From: Actinomycetota bacterium
Lineage (GTDB): Bacteria > Cyanobacteriota > Cyanobacteriia > Cyanobacteriales > Microcoleaceae
Length of the DNA: 36,301 nucleotides
NCBI GenBank assembly: GCA_050262755.1
Contig: JBLNEP010000122.1
Location: 1 to 36,301, forward strand
Direction: 5' to 3'
In this document: one piece after another, positions 10,954-27,055 of the stretch
Position numbering within the stretch: position 1 is the first letter of the stretch
Layout: each line of letters begins with the position of its first letter
The notes under the pieces: model-generated
Seen by the model: the letters and a program-made list of their open reading frames with translations, nothing else
Database searches by the model: none
What the model was told of the DNA's origin: nothing
Made by a program: the position numbers and the translations under genes

Positions 10954-13900
10954 CTACTGACCCGATACAACCAACGTAGACGAAGCCGATCGCCCGAATT
11001 CTTCGGGAGCATATTGTAAGTGAGCTTCCGCCCCTGGCCACAGATAAGTCCCAGGCGTCACCGATCGCACCAGATAGTGCAGGCTATAAGCCCCTGGCTC
11101 CAAGCGGTTGCTATAGGCCACCACGCGATCGCGATACATCTGCTTATAACCAATTTGCCAGCTATCGACTTGAGCGGCCACCGCCTTTGTAGAAGTTTGG
11201 AAACTATTATCAATGGCCTCCAAACCGGCAGGAAGTGGGTCAGTAATCACGACATGATCGACCGGACGATCCGCGATAATTTCTAAACCGATATCAAACA
11301 CCTGACCCGCAGATAAAGTCAGTGGTTGACCGGGAGCGAGCTGCTGCTTTCCTAACACTTTTTCTTCACCCGCTGGTCGAATTTCTCGCACCACCCGTAA
11401 CCCATTTAAGCGACCTGGTTGATTTCCCTGCAAGCGATAGCCATAATTCACCCAATAGTGCAGTGTCCCTTTCCCCGATTTTTGCAGAAGTAAATCACCC
11501 TTTCGAGGTAACTGATCCATTGCTACATTGATAAACTGGCTGGGATTGGTGTAGCCTTCAAATCGAATTGAATCTAACTTCTTGCCAGCCAATTTCACCG
11601 TCGCTGTAAAATTAGGAGGCGTCGGCTGAGTCTTGCTGTAGTCGGCCAAAGCAGCTAAGGCTTCCGCATTATCATAAGTGCTTTGCCAAGTGCCATCCCG
11701 CCGTAAATTCAACAAGCTTTGTAACAGGCGAACAGTATTAGCAGTCGGCGCTTGAGCACCTTCTTGGGCGAGAAATAAGCGTAAAGCTTGAGCTTGTATG
11801 GCAGTCGGTGAAGCAAACCATCTGACATTTTGAGGTAAGTTGACCGTGGCACTCCGACCGGTTACATAAATACTTTTTTGCAACTCATTCACCAAAACTT
11901 TCGCTTCATTTTGCCAATCAGGAAAGAGAGACAAGTAACGCGCTAATTTTATCTGAGTTACCAAATCGTATTGAGGACGCTGCTGCACAATTTCTTGCAA
12001 AAATTCATTCCGCTTTTGACCTAAATCTGCTAAGGCAATCAGCGCAGCGAGTCGCATCTGATTTTTACACAATTGCTCTTTGCAAGACTCATACTGTCCG
12101 GGATCGGCGAGGGTTTTCTGCAAGTAGTCCCTCAAGCGAGATACCATCCCAGGATCAACTGCATTGGGGAAGACTTTAGTGGCCGATGCGACCGCACTCG
12201 TAGCATAAGCAGTAACCCAGGGGTCAGATTTTTCTTCCATCGGAAAAGAAGCAAAACCACCATCAGGCCGCTGGAGCTTTTGCAAGCGTTCTAACGCTTG
12301 AGTTGCTTGTTGGTTCGGCTGGAATTTTTTTAAACTTTTACCGTAGGTTTTAGCCAGGGTTTGCAAGTTAGCTGCGATCGATAATTGACTCGCCGCCGGT
12401 TCCAAAAATGGTAACTGTTCATCGGCCAAAACCTGCTGAGCTGGTGCCACAATTTCCGGGATCAGCGTACTAGCCAGAGAAATTTCTAAACCGCCGATCC
12501 CAGGCATCACATTTCTATCAACCTTGAGAGGAATTTTGACTTGGTTGGTGGTTGTTCCTGCTTCCACCACATTTTCAGTTACCTCTAAAGGTTTCACCTC
12601 TAAAGGTACTTCAAAAGCATCTGATGCGCCGTTTAATTGAGTCGCAAACTGAACCTTGGCTTCACCAATGCCACTCGCGACAACCGGAAAACGGTAAGCA
12701 CGAGTTCCCGTCTCAGCTTGAGTTTGCAAGGCAGACGCTGCCGGATTTTTGCCCTCAAATTGTACAGCACCAGCAACTTGAGCATTGATTGCCAGAGAAC
12801 CTTTTTGCTGAGTATTATTGGTGACTGATAATCCCAGTTGTATGCGGTCGCCGAGTCGGGCAAATTGTGGCAAAACCGGATTAGAAATCAGCGACTTTGT
12901 CGTCATAAAGGTCGCTTCTCCCTTACCAAAATTCAAATTCCCATCTGTAGCAACTGCCATCACTCGCCATGTAGTCAAATCGTCAGGCAACTTAAACTTT
13001 ACCGTTGCTTTCCCAGCAGCATCCGTCACAATGGCACCCTTGTAAAAAGCGAGTGCTTGAAAATCTTTGCGGATGCGAGTATTAGCAGCCCCCTGCGAAA
13101 AGCCACCGCCATAACCCCAACCCTTTGCCAGTGGCGAAGCCATATTTTCTAGCACTACATTCGGTCGATTATCGCTGAATCGGGTAGAAATTGCCTGTTC
13201 TGCATAGACCGTTTTCACTAAATCAGGGAGGCGGTAGCCACTCAATTGCAGCACTGCTTCATTGACCGCCATTGCGGTGAATTGACCCTGAACCGGTTTC
13301 CCCTGATTGTCCTTTAATTCCAGTTGAACTGTTTGCTCCTCTCCTGGTTGTAATTGTGCTTGCAGGGGAGTAACTTGGATGTTTAAATATTTAGCAGCTA
13401 AATTGGTTTGAAAAGGAGCAAAGCCAATTTTAACGAGTTGATCCAAACTCCCCGGTTCCGCCTGTTCCAAACTCTTGCCTTGGCGGACTAAGACCGCTTC
13501 TACTGCTGCATTCGGCAGCATTTCTGGCGTCACCTGAAATTGAATTTGTGGCGCTCCTCCCTTGACTTTAGTCACAGTTTGATAGAGAGGTTTTTCCCGC
13601 ACCACTGCGAAGTATAATTCCGCTTCTGGATAGGGAGATTGAATCAAAGCTGTTGCCGTTTCCCCTGGTTGATAGGTTTTTTTATCAAGTTTCACTTCCA
13701 GGCGATTATTGTCATATCTCCCTCCCCAATTCACTCCTTTTTCACCCGTTGCCCAAATTTGTAAATCTGTAGCGGTTCCGTCCGTTTTACTACCCGCTAA
13801 ATTCGCTTGAATGCGGTAAGAACCTGATTCCGACGGAGTCAGAGAGACTGTTTGGGGAGTGCGATTTGATTGCACTTCTTCTCTAGCAACAGTTTTGTAT

Positions 13901-16698
13901 TCAACTTGATGACGGGAATTGCGACTTCCTTCTACGACTCGCGTGACACTACTGTAATCCATTTTTTGCAGTTCTACGCGGACTTTTTGCCCTTCAATAG
14001 GTTGACCATTGGGATCGGTGACAATGACTTGAACTGGGAAAGCTTGACCAGCATCCGCTACAAATTTGCTCTGCAAACCAATCAGACGATCGCTTGGCAA
14101 TGCTGTAAATGTTTTAGAATCAGCAACCGATAAATTAGAGACATCGGAAACTTCTACATCGACCCGATAGGTCATCGGGTAAGGCAAATCTTTGCCAACT
14201 GAGATGATTTGACGACTGTTTCCCTTGGCATCTAGCACAGAATTCTGTTGGAGAACATCTGTAGAAACCTTCGGGCTTTCTTCGGGCCAAAACCACTGTC
14301 GTCCAAAGGAAAATTGTTCCCACCCTTTCGGGGTAAATTCTGTTTGTTGGCGGGTGATGTAGTATTTGGCTTGACCCTGTTCAACCGGCAGTCCGAACAA
14401 GTAATTACTTTGAACTTTCGCCTCAAAGTTCTCATTGAGGATAGCAATACTTTTATCTAAATTTAAGTCAACTTTGAAATTAGGGGGTTTGAACTCGGCA
14501 ACGCGAAACTGACCCGAAATTTCAGCACCACTTTCTCCCTTAGCTCGCAGGTTGTAATAACCTAAAGATTGATTAGAATCAATGGGTAACTCTAGAGAAA
14601 ACGTGCCAAATTCATTAGTTTTTTGACTCCCTAAATCAGTAATTGTGCCGTTAGGACTTTGCAGTGTCACTGTGTAAGAAGCATTTTTATCCTGCTTGAG
14701 CGTGCCATTTTGCAGGTAGTAAGCCGCCCCAGTTACCCAAGCTTTTTCTCCCGGTTGATACAGTTGTCGGTCTGAAAAGATTGTACCGCGTGATTCTGGT
14801 TTGTTGCTGTTCCAACCTCCATCAATGCCGTAGCCATAGGCGCCGCTATATTCTTCGGTGCGGGTGAATGCCCAATCTTTATTTTCGCGGGCAATTACTA
14901 ACAATTTTGGGGCTTTTTCAAATCCGCCTGTTTGAGATTTAATGCAGCTTTGCAAGGCGCTCCGACTCAGCAGCAACATACCATTATTATCTGTTTTTCC
15001 GGTTGCACAAGGGGCGGGTTTGGGCTGGGATTTAGCTTCTAACTGCGATTCGTAAATCTCAACGGAGGCAGCAGCAGGAGAACCATCCCAGAGGTGATGC
15101 ACCCGAATCAACCCTGACTCCGGGAACCACTGGGCAAATACTCCTAAATTCGTCACTTGTACTAAGCCATAATGAGTCGGTTCTCGCCACTGTTGATTCT
15201 TTTTTTCATCCAGGTAAGGATTTGTTTTACCTTGAACTCCATAGGCAATCATTCCTGTTGCAGCACCCAATTGTTCTCGCAAGGGAACTGTGTTCTCAGT
15301 GGTCTGATTTTTCTGGCTAGATACCGCATATTCTTTCCAGTTAGTCGGAAGAGGAAGGAGGTTATAACCCTCACCTCTGGGATAAGCCGAATCTGTATAA
15401 ACTAATTCCGTTGGTTCGACAACTTTGAAAGCAGCTTTGTACTTTCCTTCTGGTAAGTTGACCGTAGAAATATTGAGCTGTAAGTCTTTCCCGCTAGGAA
15501 AAATATTCAACCCACTTGGTGCCCAAATTTCAGCAGCAAGATCACCAGTTTCATAGGGAACTGTAATGGATTTGCCTAGGGTTTGTCCAAATTTGTCTTT
15601 GAGGTTACCACCGATAGTAATAGTATAAGTTTTGGTTGGTTCTAAGCTCCAAGGGTTGAGATTGACGAGGGGTTCATTGTCATAAGCTTGAATCAATTTC
15701 GGTTCTTTTTTCGGAGCAGGATTAATGGTAATATTCTCAAGGGCTGAATCAGCGATAATGCCGTTATTAAATTGTAATTGGGGGCTGCCTTTTACGAATC
15801 GACCGTAAGCACCATTGGCATCTGGCTGCCCAAACTGTTTAATCCCCTGAAATGCTAAGGGAGCATAGGTTTCTAATTGACTGACAAAAGGCATTTCGCT
15901 AGGGAGATTGCCACGAAGGGGGCGCAGTCCTGACTGGAATTCTAGGCGATAGCGGGTTGCTTTTTCGAGCGCTTTTTGAGGAGTAATGGTATAAGTCCAC
16001 GGGCGAGCCGATGGATCAAACTTTGCTTCTGGTTGTTGTTGTTCGGAAAAATCTTCTGTTTTATTTAATTCTATTTTCAGCGGAATTGTTTTTGTTTCCC
16101 CCTCAGGAATCAGCTTTAAATAATTGGGTGCAGAAGCTAAATCTAGTTCTAGATTCGAGGTGAATTTGAGGGTTGGGCTTAAGTCAATCGGGCGGCGGGG
16201 TCCTTCTTTATATTCAGGTTCAGAAGAAGGTAAATTTGAGAGTTTAATGGGTTCGGTGTTAAAAGTCCAAGCAATATCTTTGTCGAGGCGATGGCTGTTT
16301 AAGTCGGTTAAACCAGCTTTGACAGTCACTTGAAAGCGAGTTGCTTTGGGCAAGGCTTGTTCTGGTTGAAATCCCACCATTCGCGGAGTTAAAAATCGAA
16401 ATTGACCGGGAATAGCAGGTTTAATTTCAAAGAATTTGAGTTGGGATTGACGTTCAGGACTATCGAGGCTTTCAATGGGAATTAATGCCTCTTTAAAACG
16501 GATGCGAATTTGATCGAGAGGGGTGGCTTCAACGGTTGGGCTAATTTCCTCAATCCAGTCTGGCGGTTGGGGCGCGATCAGGGGAGAAACTGAAGGAAGG
16601 GGCTCAATCTTTGAGGAGTGATTCGCAGCACTACAAGCAGTAATTACCAGAACTAAGATGAAGGTGATTACCACACTCATCCATATTTTAAAGTTCAT
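10954..16698 (-). CDS. Bacterial alpha-2-macroglobulin family lipoprotein (YfhM/ECAM-like)
   Basis: 1914 aa. Lipobox LVITAC at residues about 18-22, then a Pro-rich linker. The thioester-domain region matches the A2M family: …LADEQLPF… about 50 aa before RPDGGFASFPMEEKSDPWVTAYA, compare human GCGEQ …DGSYSTFGE…GNTWLTAFV. Long beta-rich macroglobulin-domain N-terminal part. Divergently paired with a PBP1C gene, as in the E. coli yfhM-pbpC association. Confidence 0.88.
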   Translation of the reverse strand: MNFKIWMSVVITFILVLVITACSAANHSSKIEPLPSVSPLIAPQPPDWIEEISPTVEATPLDQIRIRFKEALIPIESLDSPERQSQLKFFEIKPAIPGQFRFLTPRMVGFQPEQALPKATRFQVTVKAGLTDLNSHRLDKDIAWTFNTEPIKLSNLPSSEPEYKEGPRRPIDLSPTLKFTSNLELDLASAPNYLKLIPEGETKTIPLKIELNKTEDFSEQQQPEAKFDPSARPWTYTITPQKALEKATRYRLEFQSGLRPLRGNLPSEMPFVSQLETYAPLAFQGIKQFGQPDANGAYGRFVKGSPQLQFNNGIIADSALENITINPAPKKEPKLIQAYDNEPLVNLNPWSLEPTKTYTITIGGNLKDKFGQTLGKSITVPYETGDLAAEIWAPSGLNIFPSGKDLQLNISTVNLPEGKYKAAFKVVEPTELVYTDSAYPRGEGYNLLPLPTNWKEYAVSSQKNQTTENTVPLREQLGAATGMIAYGVQGKTNPYLDEKKNQQWREPTHYGLVQVTNLGVFAQWFPESGLIRVHHLWDGSPAAASVEIYESQLEAKSQPKPAPCATGKTDNNGMLLLSRSALQSCIKSQTGGFEKAPKLLVIARENKDWAFTRTEEYSGAYGYGIDGGWNSNKPESRGTIFSDRQLYQPGEKAWVTGAAYYLQNGTLKQDKNASYTVTLQSPNGTITDLGSQKTNEFGTFSLELPIDSNQSLGYYNLRAKGESGAEISGQFRVAEFKPPNFKVDLNLDKSIAILNENFEAKVQSNYLFGLPVEQGQAKYYITRQQTEFTPKGWEQFSFGRQWFWPEESPKVSTDVLQQNSVLDAKGNSRQIISVGKDLPYPMTYRVDVEVSDVSNLSVADSKTFTALPSDRLIGLQSKFVADAGQAFPVQVIVTDPNGQPIEGQKVRVELQKMDYSSVTRVVEGSRNSRHQVEYKTVAREEVQSNRTPQTVSLTPSESGSYRIQANLAGSKTDGTATDLQIWATGEKGVNWGGRYDNNRLEVKLDKKTYQPGETATALIQSPYPEAELYFAVVREKPLYQTVTKVKGGAPQIQFQVTPEMLPNAAVEAVLVRQGKSLEQAEPGSLDQLVKIGFAPFQTNLAAKYLNIQVTPLQAQLQPGEEQTVQLELKDNQGKPVQGQFTAMAVNEAVLQLSGYRLPDLVKTVYAEQAISTRFSDNRPNVVLENMASPLAKGWGYGGGFSQGAANTRIRKDFQALAFYKGAIVTDAAGKATVKFKLPDDLTTWRVMAVATDGNLNFGKGEATFMTTKSLISNPVLPQFARLGDRIQLGLSVTNNTQQKGSLAINAQVAGAVQFEGKNPAASALQTQAETGTRAYRFPVVASGIGEAKVQFATQLNGASDAFEVPLEVKPLEVTENVVEAGTTTNQVKIPLKVDRNVMPGIGGLEISLASTLIPEIVAPAQQVLADEQLPFLEPAASQLSIAANLQTLAKTYGKSLKKFQPNQQATQALERLQKLQRPDGGFASFPMEEKSDPWVTAYATSAVASATKVFPNAVDPGMVSRLRDYLQKTLADPGQYESCKEQLCKNQMRLAALIALADLGQKRNEFLQEIVQQRPQYDLVTQIKLARYLSLFPDWQNEAKVLVNELQKSIYVTGRSATVNLPQNVRWFASPTAIQAQALRLFLAQEGAQAPTANTVRLLQSLLNLRRDGTWQSTYDNAEALAALADYSKTQPTPPNFTATVKLAGKKLDSIRFEGYTNPSQFINVAMDQLPRKGDLLLQKSGKGTLHYWVNYGYRLQGNQPGRLNGLRVVREIRPAGEEKVLGKQQLAPGQPLTLSAGQVFDIGLEIIADRPVDHVVITDPLPAGLEAIDNSFQTSTKAVAAQVDSWQIGYKQMYRDRVVAYSNRLEPGAYSLHYLVRSVTPGTYLWPGAEAHLQYAPEEFGRSASSTLVVSGQ

Positions 16699-16983
16699 AT
16701 CGATCTCTCTCTTTAGGGTGACTGTATCTACAGTTAGTAAGCCGTGATTTCCCGAAAGTTTTCTTAAAAAATATAGTCAGTGGCAGCCAGGGAGATATAA
16801 ATGATTAAAGCTGATATTTTGAAGGAAGGAAGGATTTTGTAGTGTTTCTTAATAAGATGAGTTTGCCCTTGACAAGTCCGGCTTTCTGGAATTGGAAAAT
16901 TGGGAGTGTAGTCTGCTTTGGAATCCGGTGAGAGTATGTTCCGGTCTGAAAGAGATGAGACCTGAAGTTGGCTGAGGAATGAA

Positions 16984-19380
16984 GTGATGAGACAGTCAAA
17001 GCAGTGGCTGATTAAAATTTTTCAGAAGGTAGAACGGAGGTGTAAAAACCCGAAAATTCGCCTCTTGTTAATGTTGGTGCTACTAGGTCTAATCGCGCGA
17101 TCGCTTCCTTACCTCGCACCCATCCGCGCCGCTGATATCGCGCAGGATCGGCAGGCGGTAGAATTTAGCGATCGCAACGGGTTACCCCTCGGTACGGTTC
17201 TCACTCGTGACCAAGAACATACGGCTGTTGTCCCCTTAAATCAAGTTTCTCCGCAGTTCACCCGCGCCATTATTGCTGCTGAAGATGCGCGATTTTACCA
17301 ACATGGGGCCATTGATGCGATCGCACTGGGTCGCGCCATTCTGGAAGCAGTGCAAGCGAAACAAATTGTGAGTGGCGCATCCACCATTACAATGCAACTG
17401 GCCCGAATGCTAGACCCCACACCCCGCACTTTAGCAAATAAATTGCGAGAAATTTGGTTATCCTGGCGCCTAGTTGCTGGTATGAATCACAACGAAATTC
17501 TTCACGCTTACATCAACCGCCTACCGATGGGTGGCAATATCTACGGCGTAGAAGCAGCATCCCGCACCTATTTTGGCATCCCTGCCGCCGAACTCAACCT
17601 TGCCCAAGCAACTCTTCTCGCCGCCATTCCTAACGACCCCAATCATCTCAATCCCTACTACCATTGGCGATCGCTCAAGCAGCGCCAGAAATACATCCTA
17701 GAGCGCATGGTTCAAGACCGCTCGATCTCGCGATCGCAAGCCGATCGAACCTTTGCTGAAGAAATTTTACTCCTCCCTCGCCAACAAGGAATTATCGCCG
17801 CCCCTCACTTTTTATTCTGGCTATCCCATCAATTACCCAAACAACATCCCTCTCAAATTCGCACCACCCTTAACCGTTCTTTGCAGCAATTTGTAGAAGC
17901 ACAAACGCAGCAAATTGCGAGCAATCTCGCCTCCCATAACGTGAATCATGCTGCTGCCTTAGTCCTCGATAATCACACCGGCGAAGTCTTAGCTTATGTC
18001 GGTTCCCCCGATTACTTTAATGCAGTTAATATGGGTCGCAACGATGGCGTACAAGCGATGCGCCAACCCGGCTCGACCCTGAAACCTTTTCTCTATCAAC
18101 TTGCCTTAGAAAACCGCGTCATTCGCCCCAACACAATCTTAGCAGACGTCCCCACTTATTACGCAATTCCGGGCGCAAAAATCTACAGTCCTACTAACTA
18201 TCATCAAGAAACTTTTTTAGGACCTGTGCGGGTACGGGTTGCTTTAGCAAATTCCCTCAACATTCCCGCCGTGCGAGTCTTAGAACAAGTTGGAGTCCCC
18301 ACTTTTCTCAACCGCCTGCACGAATTGGGATTTGAACATTTAACCCAACCCCCAGAATACTACGGATTGGGGCTTACCCTGGGAAGTGGTGAAGTTAGTT
18401 TATGGGAATTAGCAAGAGCTTATCTCATCCTCGCGAGACAAGGAGAATTGACACCCTTAAAAACAACCCTAACTAATCTTTGTGAGTTCACCAATCCAGA
18501 AGCAAAGATCGAGTCATCCAATCACCTCTGCGTTCACTCCCCTTCCTCTCCCGTTAAACTTAAAAATGACTCTGCTGACACCTGGGGATTGATTACTAAT
18601 ATTTTAAGCGACTCCCATGCCCGCGCTCATGAATTCGGAGTTGATTCTGTCCTCGCCTTACCATTTCCCGCAGCAGTCAAAACCGGAACCTCTTCTGATT
18701 TTCGTGATACTTGGACCGTTGGATTTACAACGGATTATACAGTAGCAACTTGGGTGGGAAATTTCAACGGCGAGCGCATGAACAAAGTTTCTGGTGTCAT
18801 GGGAGCAGCACCCCTGTGGAATCGAATTATGTTGCATCTGCATGACGCTCAAGAACCTACGGATTTTCCACCCCCTAAAAAGTTGCTACAACGCCCAATT
18901 TGTGCGATTACAGGGTGGCGTCCCACTCCTGATTGTCCCTCAGTTGTGCAAGAATATTTTTCTCCTGAAGATATCAGTCAATATGAAACTCATACCGGTT
19001 CTTTAAATTTATCTCAAGAGTACAATGAATGGTTATCTCGGCAGAGTCAATTCAACGATCGACGAAGTCCAGTAAAAATTGTTTTTCCTAAAAATGATGA
19101 TTATTTCCTAATTAATCCCCATGAAACCTCACGACTAGAATTCAAATTAGCTGGAATACCAACGACTCCGGTTGAGTGGTGGCTGAATGGTAAAAAACTA
19201 ACCGTACAGTCCTCTAATTCCTTGTTTTGGCAGCTTAAACCAGGGGAATGGACCTTGCAAGTGAAAGCAGGAGAAAGGACGGATCGAGTCAAATTTCAGG
19301 TGCAGCTTGTTGACAATCCATCTACCAAACGTGGCTTCTCTTTTGTCAGTTCTCCTACCTCCTCATCTCCGGGAAAGTAG
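16984..19380 (+). CDS. pbpC: Penicillin-binding protein 1C (bifunctional glycosyltransferase/transpeptidase)
   Basis: N-terminal transmembrane anchor. GT51 motifs AAEDARFYQHGAID and GASTITMQLAR. Transpeptidase motifs STLKP (SxxK), SLN and KTGTS. C-terminal extra domain typical of PBP1C, about 800 aa. Adjacent to an A2M gene. Confidence 0.85.
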   Translation: MMRQSKQWLIKIFQKVERRCKNPKIRLLLMLVLLGLIARSLPYLAPIRAADIAQDRQAVEFSDRNGLPLGTVLTRDQEHTAVVPLNQVSPQFTRAIIAAEDARFYQHGAIDAIALGRAILEAVQAKQIVSGASTITMQLARMLDPTPRTLANKLREIWLSWRLVAGMNHNEILHAYINRLPMGGNIYGVEAASRTYFGIPAAELNLAQATLLAAIPNDPNHLNPYYHWRSLKQRQKYILERMVQDRSISRSQADRTFAEEILLLPRQQGIIAAPHFLFWLSHQLPKQHPSQIRTTLNRSLQQFVEAQTQQIASNLASHNVNHAAALVLDNHTGEVLAYVGSPDYFNAVNMGRNDGVQAMRQPGSTLKPFLYQLALENRVIRPNTILADVPTYYAIPGAKIYSPTNYHQETFLGPVRVRVALANSLNIPAVRVLEQVGVPTFLNRLHELGFEHLTQPPEYYGLGLTLGSGEVSLWELARAYLILARQGELTPLKTTLTNLCEFTNPEAKIESSNHLCVHSPSSPVKLKNDSADTWGLITNILSDSHARAHEFGVDSVLALPFPAAVKTGTSSDFRDTWTVGFTTDYTVATWVGNFNGERMNKVSGVMGAAPLWNRIMLHLHDAQEPTDFPPPKKLLQRPICAITGWRPTPDCPSVVQEYFSPEDISQYETHTGSLNLSQEYNEWLSRQSQFNDRRSPVKIVFPKNDDYFLINPHETSRLEFKLAGIPTTPVEWWLNGKKLTVQSSNSLFWQLKPGEWTLQVKAGERTDRVKFQVQLVDNPSTKRGFSFVSSPTSSSPGK

Positions 19381-20412: not shown

Positions 20413-20808
20413 ATGAAAATTGCTGTTTCAAGTAACAACCAAACCGATATCACTGGCCCCGCCGGACACTGCTTGCAATTCTGGATTTATGATATGGACG
20501 CGGCCACAGAGGATGAAAGCAAAAAGCTTTTACAGTTGACGAAAGAGCAGAGCTTTCATGCCGCTTCTGCGAGCGATCCTCATCCCCTAGACGAGGTACA
20601 AGTATTGATTAGCAGCAGCATGGGTACTGGATTAGCCCGTCGTTTAGAGTCCAAAGGCATTAAACCCATTGTTACTCCTGAAATTGACCCCGATGCAGCC
20701 GTAGCAGCTTATCTGGTGGGTTCTCTCATAACCGGAACCCCAGAAGATCGTGAACACACTCATGACACAGAACAGGACCATACAGGCGAATGTAAGTGTA
20801 ATGGCTGA
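20413..20808 (+). CDS. NifX/NifB-family dinitrogenase FeMo-cofactor-binding domain protein
   Basis: MKIAVSSNNQ…GHCLQFWIYD… matches the Nitro_FeMo-Co domain N-terminus (MKIA.PS..G…HFG…F.IYD). Cys/His-rich acidic tail (HTHDTEQDHTGECKCNG). Confidence 0.65.
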   Translation: MKIAVSSNNQTDITGPAGHCLQFWIYDMDAATEDESKKLLQLTKEQSFHAASASDPHPLDEVQVLISSSMGTGLARRLESKGIKPIVTPEIDPDAAVAAYLVGSLITGTPEDREHTHDTEQDHTGECKCNG

Positions 20809-21205
20809 TGATGATGTCTTGATTGTGGGCGGTGGTATGGTGGGATTATCCCTAGCCGCCGCCTTGTGGCAAACGCCTCTGCGAGTGGGAATCATTGAAC
20901 TCTCCGATCCGCAACGACGATCGCAAGATTCCAGAGCCAGTGCGATCGCACTAGGTTCAGCGCAAATTCTGGAGCAAATGGGTGCCTGGAAACCTATGCA
21001 AACCTTAGGCGTTTCACCCATTCATCAAGTCGTTGTCTCCGATGAAGGATTTCCCCGAACCACCACCCTCCTGTTTGGCACGGATCTCGCCAATCGTTTG
21101 TTCTCTAATCATTGGTTGCCCTTTGGGTTCGTCGTCTGGGACTCATGGGAATTGAGCATCTTTCACCCCTCAAACGAGAACTCATGCAATATGCAATGGG
21201 TGTAG
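20801..21205 (+). pseudogene. Truncated N-terminal fragment of a UbiH/Coq6-type FAD-dependent monooxygenase
   Basis: MADDDVLIVGGGMVGLSLAAAL…RVGIIE…SRASAIALGS…LGVSPIHQVVVSDEG is the FAD-binding N-terminus of a roughly 400-aa enzyme. The ORF stops after about 134 aa, and no continuation exists in any frame before the next gene at 21304. Its ATG overlaps the stop of the NifX-like gene. Confidence 0.5.
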
Positions 21206-21303: not shown

Positions 21304-22167
21304 ATGAGGAATGTACTTTCAGATACGGCGATCGCTCAATTGATAGAGGAGGATGTTCCCTATTTTGATTTGACCACCTTTGGGCTAGGTCTGAGCAAGC
21401 AAGCCGGCGCGATCGAGTTTTATGCCCGACATCCAATGGTAATCTGTGCCACGGAGGAAGCAACGAGAGTCTTTGAGCAGTGCGGGGCCACCGTTCAAGT
21501 TCAGATGGAGAGCGGCACCCCATTGGTTGCAGAACAACTCATTTTGAAGGCGACAGGGGCGGCAGAAGCGTTACATATTGCCTGGAGAGTTGCCCTCAAT
21601 TTAATGGAATATGCCTCTGGCATTGCGACTCGTACCAGTAATTTGGTGAATGCTGCTCATCAAGTCAATCCCTCCGTTGGCGTTGTCGGCACACGCAAAG
21701 TCTTTCCAGGAACTCGTAAATTATCCACTAAAGCACTCCTGGCAGGGGGCGCCATTCCGCATCGTCTGGGGTTGTCTGAAACCATTTTGATTTTTAAGGA
21801 ACATCTCACTTATCTGGATGGAATGCCGGGGTTACTGGAACGCTTACCTGAACTTAAACAGCGGTTTCAGGAACATAAGATTGCGATGGAAGTGGAAACC
21901 GCAGCAGATGCCTGGGCGATCGCTCAAGCAGGGGTGGATCTGATCCAGTTTGATAAACTTCCCGCTACCGATCTCAAGCTGTTAGTACCGTCACTCAAGG
22001 AGCAGTATCCAAACATCAAACTTGCAGTTGCGGGAGGAATTACCTTAGATAATATTCAGGACTATGCCAGCACAGGCGTCGATCTCTTAGTCACAAGTTA
22101 TCCTTATTTCGGCAAGCCTGCGGATATTGGTGCAAAGATGCTTAAGGGAGGATTGACGGACCTTTGA
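21304..22167 (+). CDS. modD: ModD / quinolinate-phosphoribosyltransferase (NadC)-family protein
   Basis: N-terminal EEDVPYFDLTT (NadC/ModD-type DLTT motif) and a TIM-barrel-like C-terminal half. At 287 aa it fits ModD better than NadC. Assignment by motif recall. Confidence 0.55.
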   Translation: MRNVLSDTAIAQLIEEDVPYFDLTTFGLGLSKQAGAIEFYARHPMVICATEEATRVFEQCGATVQVQMESGTPLVAEQLILKATGAAEALHIAWRVALNLMEYASGIATRTSNLVNAAHQVNPSVGVVGTRKVFPGTRKLSTKALLAGGAIPHRLGLSETILIFKEHLTYLDGMPGLLERLPELKQRFQEHKIAMEVETAADAWAIAQAGVDLIQFDKLPATDLKLLVPSLKEQYPNIKLAVAGGITLDNIQDYASTGVDLLVTSYPYFGKPADIGAKMLKGGLTDL

Positions 22168-22254
22168 ACCCTGAGAGGAAGTCTCAGTCAAACGTTGCTG
22201 CGACCGCCCCAGTCCTCCTGACTCCCGGTAGACAAAACTATAAGTCCCCTTGAC

Positions 22255-24951
22255 CTAAGAGTCGCTAGCGCGATCGCCTTTTGGCAAGGGGTGGGTGTCA
22301 GATGCGATCGGACTAATCAACCCCTGGGCCGTACTAAAGAGATTAATTGGATTTCTGCCATCTGTAATTAACACACTTTGAATACCCAATGCTTGTAAAA
22401 GTCTAGCCTGCATTTCCGGACCAGCTTGAGCCATTGCTGTGAGCGTTTCAGAGCCAATCGCTTCTACTTTTTCTCTGAATTCAGTGCTGGTGATTTCTGC
22501 CATCCGTTGAGCTTTTTCAATCTCCAAATGATTCAACGCTTGTTGATGCGCTAATTCTGCTTCCTGTCTCGCTCTTAATTGAGCCAATTCTACTTCAGAG
22601 CGAATCCTTGCTGCCTCGGCTTCTTGTTGAGCTAAGTTCACCGCTAATTGACCTTGAATTCTCGCAGCTTCCGCCTTGGCTCTCGCTTCTGCCGTGGCTT
22701 GACCGGTAGACTCAATGGCGGCATTTTCGGCTTGTAATTCCAGCAAATTCTTGCGCTCTACTTCTGCTGCACCTTTATCAACAATCGCTTGCCGTTCTAG
22801 TCTCGCTTTGGCTTCTTGTTCAATTCGTTCTGCATCATGTCTGGCCGCTGCTTCTTGGGCATCTGTGGTAATTTGAATGGCAATTTGTACCGACTTTTGG
22901 AGACTCTTTAAGGTTTCTTCGTCTACGGGTTCCACCGACTGGATATCTACATTAAAAATCACCAAATTATTGGTTCTAAAACGTAATTCATCTCGCACGC
23001 GACCCGCTTCGTCTGTTCCAAAGACCGAGGCACGGATAATGTGAGCTGAATTCCGGTGAAATTCGTCAAATTTGACACCCGCTACAGCTCCTCGCACGCG
23101 AGAGGCGATCGCTTTACAAGCGGTATCGATAAAATCAGGAACTTGAAACAACTTGACTGCTGCCTGTTCGTCCTGGCGATCGACATCAAAATACCAGTTA
23201 TAGGATAACCGTAACTGAAGTCTGGCATGGTCTGAAGTTTCCACGGCGAAGACATCGGTCATAAAATCCGGGCCTAATAACAAGGCGAGGGATTTGATGA
23301 CATGGGGGCGTTTGGGGACGCTACCGGATAAACTGAGTACGGTAAAGGCTTCATCAGGGCCCAGCATCACTAAGTCGGGTCCGAATACAGTTCTGGCAGT
23401 TCTTTCCTTGTAATCGTGAATTTGCACGGCTGAATTTTGCGGAACGTGAAAGACAACGGCCCTGCTTTTATCTCGTGAAGCTGTTGTTTGAGATGGGGTC
23501 GATAATTCGGAGGTTTGAGTTGAGCGATCGCTCGTTTTGCTAAGATGATACCGACCCCGCTCAGAAACCGGGTCATTTTTAAGTGCGAGTAGTTCTTCAA
23601 CAATCGGCGGTAATTCTTTTTCCCAAAGTTCTTCATAGGGACTCAGCATATAAGCTTGGGGACCGCTTACTACTTTCAGTTCACCTGTTTGAATGTCACG
23701 CACATAGATCCCTTCATTTTTATCCAGAGGAATTGCTTGACGTTTCTCCAGGACTTCCACTTCCACACGAGGAATATAATCTCTGGGTCCTGCAATCATC
23801 CACAAATCTCCAGGGTGTCGTTGAATTAAACGTTCCCCTTCTCCTTCCCTAAAAGCTTCTTTTGCTTTCAGCAAAAGAGCTTCCTGTTCGCCCAATACAT
23901 AAACTTTTTGGATCCCATTTTCTAGGGACTCACCGGGATGCAAGAAAAATGAAAGTCTGCCTTGACGAACCTCTCGCAGCCCTAACTGAGGTTTACCCTC
24001 TGCATCAATTGGGTTAACAACTGTACACCATTCTCGGTCTCCCAAGGTGGCAATTTCTACTTCCCCAACGACCACTTCATAGACATCAGGAATATGAATT
24101 TCTGCATCTTCAATCGTGACCAACCATTCATCCCCTGCTTTCCGTTGCCGACTAAAAACGTCGAAAAATGTACGTTTTGCTTGCAAATGCAAGGCTTTTT
24201 TCTCTGTTAAAATGTAAGCATTAATAATCCCAATAACTTCCTCATCAACTCCAGGTAAATAGGCTCCTTCTTCCCTCACTAACCACTCTTCACCCGCTCT
24301 GCGTCTATGACCTTGGCGATCGGTACAATTTTGCCGAGCCAGTAACCGTAACGCTTGATTCGGCTTAATAACTATGGCAGTAACGACCTTAACCACTTCA
24401 ACTTCAATACGGGGGGTATAAGTTCCTGGCCCTTCAAACAGCCATTCATCTCCTGCTAAACGGTTAATCGTTTCCGATTGGGTTTCAACTTCATTCGTCA
24501 CTAAAATGGTATCGGTAAAATCCCGCAAGGCTTTTAAACGCAATGCTTGATTTCTCTCAACTACTTTCAGTTGGGTAATCTCTCCCTGAACTTCTTCACC
24601 CGGATAGAGCGGAAAAGGCTCTTGGGCAAAGCGAATTTCGGCATCACCATATCTTAGTTTGATCTGCCCATGTTCATCTGTCAGGAGAATTCCATCCTCA
24701 TCTCGCAGCACAGGATTAGCAATCACGCAATAATAACGAGGGGGAACCACGATCATTGGTTCTGGTTTTAAAATGAGTCGCTCATGGTCGCGTAGGGTAA
24801 TCGTTTGAGGACCAACTTCTAATCGGGTAACGCCAGTATTAGTATCTAGAATGTGAATAAACTGCTGAGGTTTTAGGCGAATAACGCCCGTAGAACTTCC
24901 TGCCACTTCGGTTTTACTCTCAGTTTTCCGTTCCGTTGTATTCATTTCCAT
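22255..24951 (-). CDS. Major vault protein (MVP) homolog, full length
   Basis: 898 aa, collinear with metazoan MVP over its whole length. [12 protein letters not shown] (human PPRHYCTVANPV). [22 protein letters not shown] ([22 protein letters not shown]). [38 protein letters not shown]…ELWEKELPP. Shoulder: [28 protein letters not shown]. Ala/Glu-rich cap-helix coiled coil. C-terminal [28 protein letters not shown] (human [28 protein letters not shown]). HIP1 sites lie inside the gene. Confidence 0.9.
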   Translation of the reverse strand: [898 protein letters not shown]

Positions 24952-25535
24952 CTTCTAATTAGGGATTGCCAATAGTTTTCTAGTTAGGATTGTTTGGATA
25001 CCTTTGTGGGGTGGGCATCCCACTCGCCCTAACCCCATCACAGAAAGCCACGCTTTTGCTGTTTGAGCCAGTAGAAATTTCCCTGAGGTTGCAGCTTGAT
25101 TCTAACCGCACTTAACTTAGGGATTCAAAATTGTAATGAATCTACAATAGACTTCCCGAATCAAAGGGCGCTCGCAATTAACGGAACATCATGACTACTG
25201 AAGCTAACGCATCAAAGGGTTAGGAAGTGAGGATTCAACGATCCATAAGCAACTGGCAACCTACGGCCTGCATCTTACTGCTTTTTTACTTTCTTTATAT
25301 TTTATTCTCAAACCCTGATGCTAAGAGACGTTTACCCATTGAGCGAGCAAGAGTTGTATGGCTGCTCATGGTGCGCTCACTCCATCCCGCCAAAAAAATC
25401 GACCCCCTGCCTTTCTGTCTGCTGCGCCTGACTCTCCAACAGAAGAGGAGGTTGGAAGATCGCGCAGAAGATCGGAAGTGGGGGTCTGGTATAAGCAGAC
25501 AACCGGGTTGACGGAGCGCCTACCTTGGAGTGATG

Positions 25536-25895
25536 CTACCGTCCAGAATTATTTTTTAACTCATTTAGACTTCTCTTGGCTGTGTCTGGATACACCGATC
25601 CAAATTCTTTCAAAGCTTCTCCTGACTCTTCCACAATTTTTTCAAATCGTTCGCCAGGAGCGTTTGCTGTTTCCCGAGCTTCTTGATTCCATTCCCCGGT
25701 TGTTTTAGGTCTGGCAGAATCAGTGCGGTCTAACTTAGCGTGAGTTCGATCGCCCAAGGTTTTATGATTACGCCCAGAATCAACATTAGTCGTCAGTAGT
25801 AGAAAACCAACTAGGACTACTGCTAGAAAACGCTTGACTTGAAAGGCGCTAAACAGGGAACTGATGCAAGTGCTCGCTTTGGAAATCAAATTCAT
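25536..25895 (-). CDS. Hypothetical small membrane-anchored or secreted protein
   Basis: Only the C-terminal roughly 120 aa of the 205-aa ORF looks protein-like: MNLISKASTCISSLFSAFQVKRFLAVVLVGFLLLTTNV, then a charged soluble tail. A GGGAG sits about 10 nt upstream of the ATG at 25895. No homolog recognised. Confidence 0.3.
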   Translation of the reverse strand: MNLISKASTCISSLFSAFQVKRFLAVVLVGFLLLTTNVDSGRNHKTLGDRTHAKLDRTDSARPKTTGEWNQEARETANAPGERFEKIVEESGEALKEFGSVYPDTAKRSLNELKNNSGR

Positions 25896-26264
25896 AAGGA
25901 TCATACTCCCGGATTTTATTTTCAGTCTGATTGGCTCACAACGACTGGGGCTAATGCCATTAAAAACTTCCCGCAGCTTTTCTCTGCAATTAGCCTCAGA
26001 AATACAGACAATAGATTGGCGATTAAATCGATTCAAAGCCACACTATTTTCTAGTAAATTTCTTGTTTTGAGCCTAAACCTTAAACTAACAATCGAGAGA
26101 AAATGATTCCTCTGACTCAAGTTATAGCTTGACCCTAAGCAGAAATACTCCATCAGCTAGAGGGGAGCGGTCAACTGAGCAATCTTCTACTGAGATGAAC
26201 TTCCTCTGCTCTAGCGCAATGACCTAACTTTGCTCAACCCAGAATCATCTCGATCTGGTTATTG

Positions 26265-26444
26265 CTAATCCCATAACTCCTCATCAGCACTAGACTCAAT
26301 GGTTAAATCATCCAGGCTATCACCCTGCTGCTCGTAATGGTCGAGGCACTCTTCAGAGCAGAGGTAGGCAAGCTGATCGTAGAGCGGTGAAAGCAGAGGT
26401 TCGAGCGGAAGATCGCCACCGCACCAATCGCATTTTTTGCTCAT
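26265..26444 (-). CDS. Small acidic Cys-rich protein (putative zinc ribbon), hypothetical
   Basis: MSKKCDWCGG…LCSEECLDHY, i.e. CxxC…CxxxC. Strong RBS GGAGG 8 nt upstream of the ATG at 26444. The listed ORF start at 26459 is a TTG upstream of it. Confidence 0.4.
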   Translation of the reverse strand: MSKKCDWCGGDLPLEPLLSPLYDQLAYLCSEECLDHYEQQGDSLDDLTIESSADEELWD

Positions 26445-26614
26445 AACTATCGCCTCCAATCAACCAAGAATTTCTGGGAACGTTCTGAAGGTTTTTATAG
26501 CAGAAATAATCCAGCTTCTGCTCGCATTTTTATTGAATTGTATCTTTTGTAACAGAACTTGACTTCTGAATCAGATTATTCATGATTAATTGATTGACGA
26601 AGGGAGGAAATTAA

Positions 26615-27055
26615 ATGGCAATTTCTGAAATCACCCAAAAATTGTTAGCGGCTAAGAAAGCTAAGCAAATTAGTTTTACAGACTTGGAGAAAATCGTGGG
26701 TCGTGATGAAGTCTGGATTGCTGCGGTGATCTATCGCCAAGCAGCCGCTTCTATGGATGAAGCGGAAAAGATAGTCTCAGCTTTGGGGTTAGAGCGAGAA
26801 ATTGCTGAAATTCTTACAGAATCGCCTTTAAAAAGTTCTTTAGAGGGCGCTCTTGCCGATCCGCTGATTTACCGATTTTATGAAATTGTGCAGGTGTATG
26901 GAATGCCACTCAAAGCAATTATTCATGAAAAATTTGGCGATGGAATTATGAGTGCGATTGACTTTACCCTTGATGTAGAGAAGGAAGAAGATCCGAAGGG
27001 CGATCGAGTTAAAGTCATGATGTCGGGGAAATTTTTACCCTATAAAAAATGGTAG
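26615..27055 (+). CDS. cynS: Cyanase (cyanate hydratase)
   Basis: Near-identical C-terminal catalytic region to E. coli CynS: [36 protein letters not shown]…[25 protein letters not shown] upstream. Confidence 0.95.

What the first reader, a model, noticed from the sequence alone, without database searches (positions are those of the whole stretch)
22255..24951. Full-length major vault protein homolog in a bacterial (cyanobacterial) genome
MVP builds the 13-MDa vault particle of eukaryotes, and bacterial homologs are rare. This ORF is collinear with metazoan MVP from the first vault repeat through the shoulder and the Ala/Glu-rich cap-helix coiled coil to the C-terminal cap-ring. The cap-helix is the element that drives 39-fold assembly. 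I estimate similarity to human MVP by eye as very high, with many identical 10-20-residue blocks. Several HIP1 octamers (22270, 23105, 23524) lie inside the gene and it is flanked by typical cyanobacterial genes. It therefore looks like a resident, ameliorated gene, probably of ancient horizontal origin, rather than eukaryotic contamination. No TEP1, vPARP or obvious vault-RNA partner is nearby. The intergenic regions at 24952-25230 and 22168-22254 are the only candidate places for an associated small RNA. A bacterial vault-like nanocompartment would be of obvious interest.
Basis: partly seen in the sequence, partly recalled or inferred. Interest (0 to 1): 0.8.

Follow-up and report, generated by a model that had tools for sequence, protein, structure and literature searches.

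The report
Cyanobacterial major vault protein gene
This is a real, full-length bacterial copy of the protein that builds the eukaryotic "vault" particle, living in a filamentous cyanobacterium, but such cyanobacterial copies were first reported in 2013 and turn out to be common, so the gene is confirmed rather than new.

Summary
The ORF at 22255-24951 (minus strand; real start probably 24945, 896 aa) is a true end-to-end ortholog of eukaryotic major vault protein (MVP). All vault-repeat and shoulder Pfam domains are present. It matches solved vaults at E about 1e-293 and is 56.7% identical to human MVP over 833 residues, through the cap-helix and cap-ring. It is not contamination or a chimera. 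It carries 3 HIP1 octamers, its codon usage and GC match its neighbours, and dN/dS is 0.05-0.08. A second strain from another sequencing run shows the same locus across both junctions. I found more than 120 clusters at 90% identity and 73 genome loci in filamentous cyanobacteria. Copies also occur in Thiomargarita/Parabeggiatoa and Chloroflexota, with host-matched composition. Cyanobacterial MVPs were published in 2013, 2019 and 2023. The gene stands alone: no conserved partner gene, no TEP1, no PARP4, no vault RNA. The PARP4-docking Asp is Gly. Waist contacts, cap-closing residues and 11 of 13 NAD+/ADP-ribose pocket residues are conserved. It most likely self-assembles into a vault-like shell, which nobody has tested. 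The direction of transfer between eukaryotes and bacteria remains unresolved.

The parts
22255..24951 (-). MVP coding sequence. The ORF from the first ATG is 898 aa. The probable true start is the second ATG at 24945 (896 aa). The stop codon is at 22255-22257.
   Evidence: ORF list. Pfam vault domains. End-to-end PDB match at E about 1e-293. The second ATG is invariant in alignment A1, while the first is missing in L004. NCBI and Logan aa.
23275..24891 (-). Vault repeat domains R1-R9 (aa about 21-559 in 898-aa numbering). Relative to human MVP there is an 11-residue insertion in R3 (aa about 149-162) and a 13-residue insertion at aa about 463-481. A hydrophilic N-terminal extension of about 16 aa precedes R1 (24892-24951).
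   Evidence: Pfam Vault, Vault_2, Vault_3 and Vault_4. 55.6% identity to human residues 7-519. The insertions are visible in the HMMER alignment.
22921..23274 (-). Shoulder (SPFH-like) domain, aa 560-677. Together with the preceding 'keyhole' loop (aa about 545-553) it carries the adenine-nucleotide pocket residues.
   Evidence: PF11978 at 1.7e-51, full length 1-118/118. 68.1% identity to human. Pocket residues are 11 of 13 identical, using the residue list from PMC12280208.
22456..22920 (-). Cap-helix coiled-coil domain, aa about 678-832, rich in Ala, Glu and Gln.
   Evidence: Collinear with human 647-802 at 50.6% identity. The low-confidence AF2 model shows long helices at 676-745 and 751-830 in 896-aa numbering, which is +2 in the 898-aa numbering used for these parts.
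22312..22455 (-). Cap-ring / cap-disk segment, aa 833-880. A non-conserved C-terminal tail follows (aa 881-898, nt 22258-22311).
   Evidence: 60.4% identity to human 803-850. It matches the separately deposited cap chain 9z5n_B at E = 1.3e-23. Triple-Leu motif and inner-barrel residues are conserved (alignment against the residue list in PMC12915596).
25099..25145 (-). Probable promoter and operator. A palindrome TGTAGATTCATTACA (25131-25145) is followed 27 nt downstream by an invariant GGTTAGAAT (-10-like TAGAAT at 25099-25104). This implies a 5' UTR of about 140 nt.
   Evidence: Promoter-like hit (such hits are not enriched over shuffles). The columns are invariant in an alignment of 6 orthologous upstream regions. 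The palindrome lies upstream of MVP in 8 loci, at 0.40/kb against 0.01/kb background. Its function is inferred.
22270..22277 (.). HIP1 octamer GCGATCGC inside the MVP gene. Two more lie at 23105-23112 and 23524-23531.
   Evidence: Exact pattern search: 24 in the window against 0.45 expected.

Best explanation
The gene encodes a true ortholog of eukaryotic major vault protein. It is chromosomally resident in a filamentous, Coleofasciculaceae-like cyanobacterium, and the contig is mis-labelled 'Actinomycetota' in its public record. Shown here: it has every structural module of MVP in the same order (nine vault repeats, SPFH-like shoulder, cap-helix, cap-ring). It is 57% identical to human MVP, is under strong purifying selection, and is compositionally native to its host. 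It belongs to a tight, 100%-supported bacterial MVP clade present in many filamentous cyanobacteria and, through inter-phylum transfer, in large sulfur bacteria (Thiotrichales) and filamentous Chloroflexota.

Inferred: MVP alone suffices to build vaults in heterologous hosts, and vault-like particles are reported from E. coli (PMC9778704). The residues that join the two halves at the waist are conserved, as are those that weave the 13-fold cap. The protein therefore most likely self-assembles in the cytoplasm into a hollow vault-like shell, two half-shells of about 39 subunits each. It does so as a stand-alone shell: there is no conserved neighbouring gene, no TEP1, PARP4 or vault RNA, and the PARP4-docking Asp214 is replaced by Gly. 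The inter-subunit NAD+/ADP-ribose pocket of the shoulder is largely kept (11 of 13 residues; one of the two diphosphate-contacting basic residues, R511, is Ile in 59 of the 60 bacterial sequences compared). Adenine-nucleotide binding by the shell is therefore a plausible conserved activity.

My probabilities: true resident MVP ortholog 0.97; forms closed vault-like particles in vivo about 0.6; binds NAD+/ADP-ribose-type ligands about 0.4. The physiological role is as unknown as it is in eukaryotes.
For: - Domain content.
- End-to-end alignment to solved vaults.
- Per-domain identity, with waist residues R9, N22, D39 and R42 conserved (R9, N22, R42 in 60 of 60 bacterial sequences, D39 in 56 of 60).
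- NAD pocket 11 of 13 identical: using residues from PMC12280208.
- Cap residues L821, L822, L825, I832, G835, N840, L841, F842, T844 and A845 identical: alignment against PMC12915596.
- Residency: HIP1, codon usage and GC, dN/dS 0.05-0.08, and the same locus in independent assemblies and in a second strain.
- Family breadth.
- Non-cyanobacterial hosts are real: zero HIP1 in their flanks, and MVP GC tracks the host from 0.39 to 0.67.
- Bacterial clade monophyly 100%.
- No conserved partner gene.
- No RNA family.
- MVP self-assembly in eukaryotic hosts, and vault-like particles from E. coli: abstract of PMC9778704.
Against: - No particle has been seen for any bacterial MVP. I found no experimental paper.
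- The AF2 monomer model was low-confidence (pLDDT 41.6), so the fold rests on sequence homology alone.
- Small bacterial-specific insertions and a 16-aa N-terminal extension could alter packing or symmetry.
- Two basic pocket residues are lost (R504V, R511I), so nucleotide binding may be weaker or absent.
- Cap residues P804, D809 and F846 differ.
- Only 36 kb of the genome is visible, so vault partners encoded elsewhere cannot be excluded.
Confidence: 0.85

Rival explanations
1. The protein has the MVP fold but assembles differently from the closed 78-mer. It might form a half-vault, or an SPFH-like dome sitting on the thylakoid or plasma membrane, or a cage of different symmetry. In that case it would act like stomatin/HflK/C-type membrane cages rather than as a free cytoplasmic vault.
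For: The shoulder is an SPFH-type fold, and the vault cap resembles SPFH cages (PMC12915596). There are bacterial-specific insertions and an N-terminal extension at the waist end. Some cap residues differ: P804S, D809A, F846Q. No particle has been observed.
Against: No Band_7 Pfam match was returned. No transmembrane segment or signal peptide is apparent by eye in the hydrophilic N-terminus; I ran no predictor. The waist-contact residues that hold two halves together are conserved in 56-60 of the 60 bacterial sequences compared, which is hard to explain if halves never pair. All nine repeats are retained at 56% identity.
Confidence: 0.2
2. The gene is eukaryotic DNA (protist or animal) that contaminated the metagenome, or the contig is an assembly chimera joining eukaryotic and cyanobacterial DNA.
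For: 57% identity to human MVP is very unusual for a bacterial protein. The contig's public label (Actinomycetota) shows that binning went wrong somewhere.
Against: Three HIP1 octamers lie inside the gene. Codon usage and GC match the neighbours. The ORF is intron-free. The same gene order on both sides appears in two independent Logan assemblies, one of them a distinct strain at 97.9% nucleotide identity. There are 73 bacterial loci, including closed or near-complete genomes of 7-10 Mb such as Calothrix NIES-2100, plus the scaffold-level Oscillatoria PCC 10802.
Confidence: 0.01
3. It is what NCBI calls it: a TolA-like 'colicin uptake protein', an envelope-spanning membrane protein of the Tol-Pal system.
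For: NCBI's automatic name for nearly all members. The literature notes weak similarity between the Ala/Glu-rich cap-helix and TolA domain II (10.1101/872010; PMC3762200).
Against: Pfam returns only vault and shoulder families plus a sub-threshold Cupin_6 match, and no TolA family. No NCBIfam model matches. The N-terminus shows no obvious membrane anchor by eye, and there are no tol/pal neighbours. The match to MVP is end-to-end at E about 1e-293. The TolA resemblance is low-complexity coiled coil.
Confidence: 0.01
4. Origin, rival to eukaryote-to-bacterium transfer: MVP arose in bacteria (cyanobacteria or their relatives) and eukaryotes acquired it from them, as proposed by Sokolskyi 2019.
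For: Far more divergent MVP-like proteins exist in other bacteria and phages (PMC3762200; a 23.5% hit in jumbo phages). Bacterial MVPs are the closest sequences to human MVP in my set (55-58%), so they sit near the centre of the tree. A 2023 tree places cyanobacteria at the base of the eukaryotic cluster.
Against: The bacterial clade is shallow (minimum 64%, median 73% identity) although it spans three phyla. The eukaryote-type representatives are deeply diverged (median 37%). This fits a later acquisition followed by spread among filamentous bacteria. Distribution within cyanobacteria appears patchy: only filamentous genera turned up in a scan that was capped and limited by its search patterns. 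Daly 2013 placed the cyanobacterial sequences inside Amoebozoa. My backbone supports are 7-21%, so neither direction is demonstrated.
Confidence: 0.25

Closest known systems
Cyanobacterial MVP homologs already described: Moorena producens / 'Lyngbya majuscula' 3L F4Y3B4, Oscillatoria acuminata K9TKX8, Allocoleopsis ('Microcoleus' PCC 7113) K9WB38 (Daly et al. 2013, PMC3762200; Sokolskyi 2019, bioRxiv 10.1101/872010)
   Same: Same orthologous clade. The window protein is 80-81% identical to the Moorena producens 3L and Allocoleopsis franciscana proteins. It has the same Pfam architecture, the same length class (about 870-900 aa) and the same NCBI misnomer, 'colicin uptake protein'.
   Different: It comes from a different, unnamed species; the nearest relative is a Coleofasciculaceae MAG at 90%. 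Its genomic neighbours are different. Nothing differs functionally as far as sequence shows.
Metazoan major vault protein (human P/N 11dr, rat 4v60/4hl8, rabbit 9z4w): shell of the 13-MDa vault particle
   Same: End-to-end collinear at 56.7% identity: nine repeats, shoulder, cap-helix and cap-ring. Waist contacts, the cap triple-Leu motif and inner-barrel residues, and 11 of 13 NAD+ pocket residues are conserved.
   Different: The PARP4/MINT docking salt-bridge residue D214 is Gly and Q164 is Thr. No TEP1, PARP4 or vault RNA is present in the window. The bacterial protein has an N-terminal extension of about 16 aa and two short insertions. Pocket residues R504 and R511 are Val and Ile. Particle formation is untested.
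Distant bacterial and phage MVP-like proteins (Myxococcales, Cytophagales/Saprospira, Herpetosiphon; gut phages ctOa11/ct2Ri15): PMC3762200, 10.1101/2023.11.10.566534
   Same: They share vault-repeat, shoulder and coiled-coil architecture, and they occur in gliding or filamentous bacteria.
   Different: Those are only about 16-25% identical to the cyanobacterial and eukaryotic proteins, and some carry a recognisable band-7 domain. The window protein belongs to the eukaryote-like clade, not to this divergent group. The only phage hits to it are 23.5% identical.
SPFH/band-7 cages (HflK/C, stomatin, flotillin)
   Same: The MVP shoulder has an SPFH-type fold, and the cap architecture parallels SPFH domes (PMC12915596). 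Both are large homo-oligomeric cages closed by a helical barrel.
   Different: SPFH cages are membrane-anchored single domes without vault repeats. This protein shows no obvious membrane anchor, has nine vault repeats and gives no Band_7 Pfam hit.

Membership tests
Major vault protein (MVP) family | Tandem vault repeat domains (R1-R9; Pfam PF01505, PF17794, PF17795, PF17796) | tested here: met
   Vault 1.6e-64 (4 stretches), Vault_2 5.7e-36 (2), Vault_3 3.5e-33 and Vault_4 2.3e-17, all above gathering score.
Major vault protein (MVP) family | MVP shoulder (SPFH-like) domain, PF11978 | tested here: met
   1.7e-51, covering 1-118 of the 118 profile positions at aa 560-677. 68.1% identity to human.
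Major vault protein (MVP) family | Cap-helix coiled coil of about 155 residues followed by the cap-ring, collinear with solved MVP | tested here: met
   A single HMMER alignment spans query 21-890 against chain 5-859. Cap-helix 50.6% and cap-ring 60.4% identity. There is a separate match to cap chain 9z5n_B at E = 1.3e-23. Of 17 published cap-contact residues, 12 are identical and 3 are conservative substitutions.
Major vault protein (MVP) family | Half-vault (waist) contact residues at the N-terminus (R9, N22, D39, R42 in human and rat numbering) | tested here: met
   All four are identical in the query. R9, N22 and R42 are invariant in 60 of 60 bacterial orthologs and D39 is present in 56 of 60. 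The residue list comes from PMC12280208.
Major vault protein (MVP) family | Self-assembly into a 78-subunit, D39, barrel-shaped particle | not testable with these tools
   Needs expression and EM. The monomer AF2 model was low-confidence (pLDDT 41.6), and no multimer prediction is available.
Eukaryotic vault ribonucleoprotein (MVP + TEP1 + PARP4 + vault RNA) | Vault RNA gene or another associated small RNA | tested here: not met
   No Rfam family at gathering score in the whole window, nor at E <= 1 in 22100-26650. The intergenic folds are no better than shuffles. Flanks are not conserved beyond close relatives. Only this 36-kb window was searched.
Eukaryotic vault ribonucleoprotein (MVP + TEP1 + PARP4 + vault RNA) | TEP1 (TROVE/DUF4062/NACHT/WD40) or PARP4 encoded nearby, and the PARP4-MINT docking site on MVP repeats 3-4 | tested here: not met
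   No such domains in any ORF of 110 aa or more in the window. No partner gene is conserved across 73 loci. Docking residue D214 is Gly and Q164 is Thr, while R169 is Lys and Q172 is kept.
Eukaryotic vault ribonucleoprotein (MVP + TEP1 + PARP4 + vault RNA) | Inter-subunit NAD+/ADP-ribose pocket at the shoulder | tested here: inconclusive
   11 of 13 pocket residues are identical: R437, K506, R507, P508, H509, L517, D521, F522, W545, P565 and K573. R504 is Val. The diphosphate-contacting R511 is Ile in 59 of the 60 bacterial sequences compared. Binding itself is untested.
TolA / 'colicin uptake protein' (the NCBI name of this protein) | TolA domains, an N-terminal membrane anchor and Tol-Pal gene context | tested here: not met
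   No TolA Pfam or NCBIfam match. The N-terminus is hydrophilic by eye. The neighbours are ModD, cyanase and hypotheticals.

The most novel reading that the evidence does not exclude
Eukaryote-type vaults may be real nanocompartments of large, filamentous, multicellular bacteria. On this reading one tight MVP clade has been passed between three phyla (Cyanobacteriota, Thiotrichales such as Thiomargarita/Parabeggiatoa, and filamentous Chloroflexota). It is kept under strong purifying selection as a stand-alone shell whose conserved shoulder pocket binds NAD+/ADP-ribose-type nucleotides. Bacteria would then offer a minimal, partner-free system for working out the core function of vaults. I did not find the occurrence outside cyanobacteria reported in the searchable literature.
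Probability: 0.35. Interest if true: 0.65.

Novelty: already known. Interest (0 to 1): 0.3.

Why it matters
Vault function has been an open question since 1986, and many papers still state that prokaryotes lack vaults (for example the abstract of PMC9778704). A bacterial MVP that is 57% identical to the human protein shows that the shell alone is a selectable unit. It stands alone, is under purifying selection, and keeps the waist contacts, the cap and most of the nucleotide pocket. A culturable cyanobacterial host could give a simple route to the core function. That opportunity is not specific to this window. The same gene is present in cultured and sequenced strains (Moorena producens 3L, Allocoleopsis franciscana PCC 7113, Calothrix NIES-2100, Oscillatoria PCC 10802, Tumidithrix PCC 7403), and the observation itself has been in print since 2013. 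This analysis adds three things. The family is much larger than reported. It extends, with host-matched composition, to giant sulfur bacteria and Chloroflexota. It has no conserved genomic partner.

Tried and rejected
1. AlphaFold2 monomer from a 27-sequence alignment gave mean pLDDT 41.6 and pTM 0.20. That is too poor for a fold search, so none was run. The fold assignment rests on 57% identity to solved structures.
2. Conserved-partner search over 73 loci, within 7 kb either side. The largest non-MVP cluster (21 loci) proved to be unrelated two-component, kinase and WD40 proteins joined by single linkage. There is no family-wide partner.
3. NAD-biosynthesis link through the convergent QPRTase-like neighbour. 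It is ModD (TIGR01334, 241 bits, above cut-off), and the nadC model scores below its cut-off. The adjacency is not conserved in other loci. Rejected.
4. Vault RNA or other small RNA. Rfam at gathering score and at E <= 1 found nothing. Intergenic folds gave z from -1.35 to +0.71. Flank conservation is limited to close relatives.
5. NtcA site. The upstream palindrome has N7 spacing, not N8, and there are no N8 hits upstream of MVP in any locus.
6. Plasmid or phage carriage as the vehicle of spread. There were no plasmid hits, and only 23.5%-identical hits in two 735-kb uncultured phage records.
7. Direction of transfer from a bootstrapped NJ tree (61 taxa, 818 columns). Bacterial monophyly is 100%, but backbone support is 7-21%, so the question is unresolved. 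I did not add a distant outgroup, because at about 20-25% identity a distance tree would not be reliable.
8. Mis-binning as the explanation for the non-cyanobacterial hosts. Rejected: zero HIP1 in their flanks, and MVP GC tracks the host.
Full report
**Observation**

The window holds an 898-aa ORF at 22255-24951 on the minus strand.
- Pfam finds every MVP module: Vault (4 stretches, 1.6e-64), Vault_2 (2 stretches), Vault_3, Vault_4 and a full-length MVP_shoulder (1.7e-51). No competing family scores above threshold.
- No NCBIfam model matches. This explains why NCBI names the family by a weak coiled-coil resemblance.
- Against all PDB sequences the protein gives one collinear alignment, query 21-890 to residues 5-859 of rabbit, human and rat MVP, at E = 1.6e-293 to 7e-292. 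It also matches the separately deposited cap chain 9z5n_B.
- Parsing the human alignment gives 56.7% identity over 833 positions: repeats 55.6%, shoulder 68.1%, cap-helix 50.6%, cap-ring 60.4%.
Only two identical runs reach 10 or more residues: [14 protein letters not shown] and [13 protein letters not shown].
- The second ATG (24945) is invariant among close orthologs while the first is absent in one of them. Public gene calls give 896 aa, so 24945 is the likelier start.

**Residency, not contamination**

- The neighbours are ordinary bacterial and cyanobacterial genes: ModD, cyanase, a PBP1C plus alpha-2-macroglobulin pair, CHAT-CHASE2 plus DUF1822, AAA_35 proteins and a giant Ser/Thr-kinase-GAF-histidine-kinase.
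- MVP's synonymous codon usage is as close to the pooled neighbours as a length-matched simulation predicts (0.58 against 0.53 +/- 0.11). Its GC is 45.8% against 44.4% for the flanks.
- Two independent Logan assemblies carry the same gene order on both sides. One of them, from a different run, is a distinct strain that is collinear over 13.7 kb at 97.9% nucleotide identity, with a 99.2% identical MVP.
- dN/dS against that strain and against orthologs at 80-90% identity is 0.05-0.08.
- The public record of this contig is labelled 'Actinomycetota bacterium'. Given the HIP1 density and relatives at 90% identity in Coleofasciculaceae, that label is a binning error.

**How common it is**

- The word-indexed search returned at least 120 clusters at 90% identity that are 74-100% identical to the query. 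All have the full vault domain set. NCBI names them 'colicin uptake protein' and JGI names them 'major vault protein'.
- One scan of species-representative genomes gave 73 loci. They include Aerosakkonema, Potamolinea, Calothrix, Nostoc, Aulosira, Microseira, Moorena, Symploca, Okeania, Oscillatoria, Laspinema, Microcoleus, Planktothricoides, Tumidithrix, Limnofasciculus and Hormoscilla.
- At 67-71% identity (76% for one short fragment) the gene also occurs in Thiotrichaceae, Thiomargarita and Parabeggiatoa, and in Anaerolineae, Chloroflexaceae, Oscillochloris and Thermoflexales.
- Because the window itself is mis-binned, I checked those loci. They have zero HIP1 in up to 20 kb of flank, and the MVP gene's GC follows each host from 0.39 to 0.67. 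The gene is at home in three phyla.
- No plasmid carries it. The only phage hits are 23.5% identical, in two 735-kb uncultured phage records.

**What is already published**

- Daly et al. 2013 (PMC3762200) listed MVPs from Lyngbya/Moorena, Oscillatoria acuminata and Microcoleus PCC 7113. They noted the 'colicin uptake' misnomer, predicted vault-competent folds, found the sequences grouping with Amoebozoa, and proposed transfer from a eukaryote.
- Sokolskyi 2019 (bioRxiv 10.1101/872010) linked bacterial MVPs to gliding motility and argued for the opposite direction of transfer.
- A 2023 preprint added phage homologs and placed cyanobacteria at the base of the eukaryotic cluster.
- I found no paper reporting a bacterial vault particle, expression data, or MVP in Thiomargarita or Chloroflexota. 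The library is incomplete, so this is not proof of absence.

**Anatomy and likely mechanism**

- Across 73 loci the gene has no conserved neighbour. Immediate flanks differ even between proteins that are 90% identical.
- The one recurring upstream gene on the same strand is a Ser/Thr-kinase-WD40 protein. It occurs in one deep cyanobacterial clade (L042, L048, L065) and, further away, in Okeania.
- Nothing in the window resembles TEP1, PARP4 or TROVE.
- No Rfam family is found at any threshold. The two intergenic regions fold no better than shuffles.
- Using published structural work I mapped functional residues:
  - The waist contacts R9, N22, D39 and R42 are all identical in the query. R9, N22 and R42 are invariant in 60 of 60 bacterial orthologs and D39 in 56 of 60.
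  - The PARP4-MINT salt-bridge residue D214 is Gly and Q164 is Thr.
  - Of the 13 residues lining the inter-subunit NAD+/ADP/ADP-ribose pocket, 11 are identical. R504 is Val, and R511 is Ile in 59 of the 60 bacterial sequences.
  - Of 17 residues named as forming the C13 cap, 12 are identical and 3 conservative. These include the L821/L822/L825 motif and most of the inner barrel, GSTPVNLFNTA against [11 protein letters not shown].
- MVP alone builds vaults in heterologous eukaryotic hosts, and vault-like particles are reported from E. coli (PMC9778704 abstract).
- The best-supported mechanism is therefore self-assembly into a stand-alone, vault-like shell that may bind adenine nucleotides. This step is inference. 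The AF2 monomer model was too poor to add anything (pLDDT 41.6), and multimers cannot be modelled here.

**Evolution**

- In the exhaustive search of cluster representatives at 50% identity, the best hit is only 54% identical. The bacterial clade is apparently collapsed into a cluster with eukaryote-type sequences.
- A bootstrapped NJ tree used 22 bacterial proteins, 38 representatives (including Anaeramoeba, a sponge and a ciliate) and human MVP, for 61 sequences in all.
  - The bacterial clade has 100% support and Thiotrichaceae has 100%. A cyanobacterial subclade of 17 sequences has 74%.
  - The position of the bacterial clade among the other lineages has only 7-21% support.
- The bacterial clade is shallow (minimum 64%, median 73% identity) while the rest is deep (median 37%). 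The 17 sequences closest to human MVP in the set are all bacterial, at 55-58%.
- This fits acquisition from a slowly evolving eukaryotic lineage followed by spread among filamentous bacteria. It does not exclude the reverse. I put eukaryote-to-bacterium at about 0.6.

**Side observation on regulation**

- An invariant palindrome TGTAG-N5-TTACA lies at 25131-25145. It is followed 27 nt later by an invariant GGTTAGAAT, a -10-like box.
- The palindrome is found upstream of MVP in 8 loci, at 0.40/kb against 0.01/kb elsewhere. Its spacing is N7, not the N8 of NtcA sites.
- It looks like the operator of an unknown regulator in this subclade.

**Verdict**

The open and testable question is whether bacteria make vault particles, and what a partner-free vault does. 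That question is of real interest, but it is not specific to this window.

Noticed in passing
window 1-36301 (whole contig): The public record of this contig is labelled 'MAG: Actinomycetota bacterium'. It has 24 HIP1 octamers, cyanobacterial-type genes, and nearest MVP relatives in Coleofasciculaceae. It is almost certainly a cyanobacterial contig mis-binned into an actinobacterial MAG.
   Followed up: partly
L043, L046, L053, L070 (Thiotrichales); L044, L045, L049, L058, L066, L072, L073 (Chloroflexota): Eukaryote-type MVP orthologs at 67-71% identity to the query (76% for one short fragment) are present in giant or filamentous sulfur bacteria and in filamentous Chloroflexota. Their flanks contain no HIP1, and MVP GC matches each host. 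I found no report of this in the searchable literature.
   Followed up: partly
window 25099-25145 (minus strand): An invariant palindrome TGTAGATTCATTACA lies 27 nt upstream of an invariant GGTTAGAAT (-10-like). The pair is conserved upstream of MVP in 8 loci, at 0.40/kb against 0.01/kb background. The spacing is N7, so this is not an NtcA site. It is probably the operator of an unknown regulator.
   Followed up: partly
L042:7404-9920, L048:609-3128, L065:7328-9865 (also L069:6467-8848): In one deep-branching cyanobacterial clade a Ser/Thr protein kinase-WD40 gene sits 81-136 bp upstream of MVP on the same strand. Okeania has a similar gene 1.15 kb upstream. The WD40 similarity to TEP1 propellers is generic. 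The arrangement may be a clade-specific operon.
   Followed up: partly
window 10954-19380: A 1914-aa bacterial alpha-2-macroglobulin (minus strand) lies divergent from a PBP1C-type penicillin-binding protein (plus strand). This is a second 'eukaryote-like' protein on the same contig, in what I recall as a known bacterial gene pairing.
   Followed up: no
window 3994-10702: A cluster of conflict- or signalling-type genes: a LuxR-TIR-AAA_35 protein (3994-5832), a second AAA_35 protein (5895-7046), and CHAT-CHASE2 (7043-9511) with DUF1822 (9524-10702). It lies 12-18 kb from MVP and is not linked to MVP in other loci.
   Followed up: no
window 20750-21205: A 151-aa ORF matches only the first 100 or so residues of UbiH/UbiF-type FAD-dependent hydroxylases of about 400 aa. 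It overlaps the end of a NifX/NifB-C-terminal-like ORF (20413-20808). It is probably a truncated gene remnant.
   Followed up: no
window 21304-22167: The convergent neighbour of MVP is ModD (TIGR01334, above cut-off), a quinolinate-phosphoribosyltransferase paralog, and not NadC. The adjacency is limited to this strain and its near-identical relative.
   Followed up: yes
phage records LR756501.1 and LR756503.1, 17332-18840: Two 735-kb uncultured jumbo-phage records encode an MVP-like stretch covering shoulder to cap (query 351-850) at 23.5% identity, E = 5e-22. The records carry no annotation.
   Followed up: no
window 25536-25895 and 26265-26459 (minus strand): Two small unannotated ORFs lie upstream of MVP. 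One is 119 aa with a single hydrophobic segment and no family match; Logan calls it as a gene. The other is a 64-aa Cys-rich ORF with a weak, sub-threshold TRASH-domain match (E = 1.3e-4). Neither is conserved next to MVP in other loci.
   Followed up: partly
window 35537-35956: A 139-aa ORF has a short match to a DDE transposase domain (DDE_Tnp_1_3, 27.2 bits, essentially at the 27-bit cut-off). It is probably a transposase fragment near the contig end.
   Followed up: no
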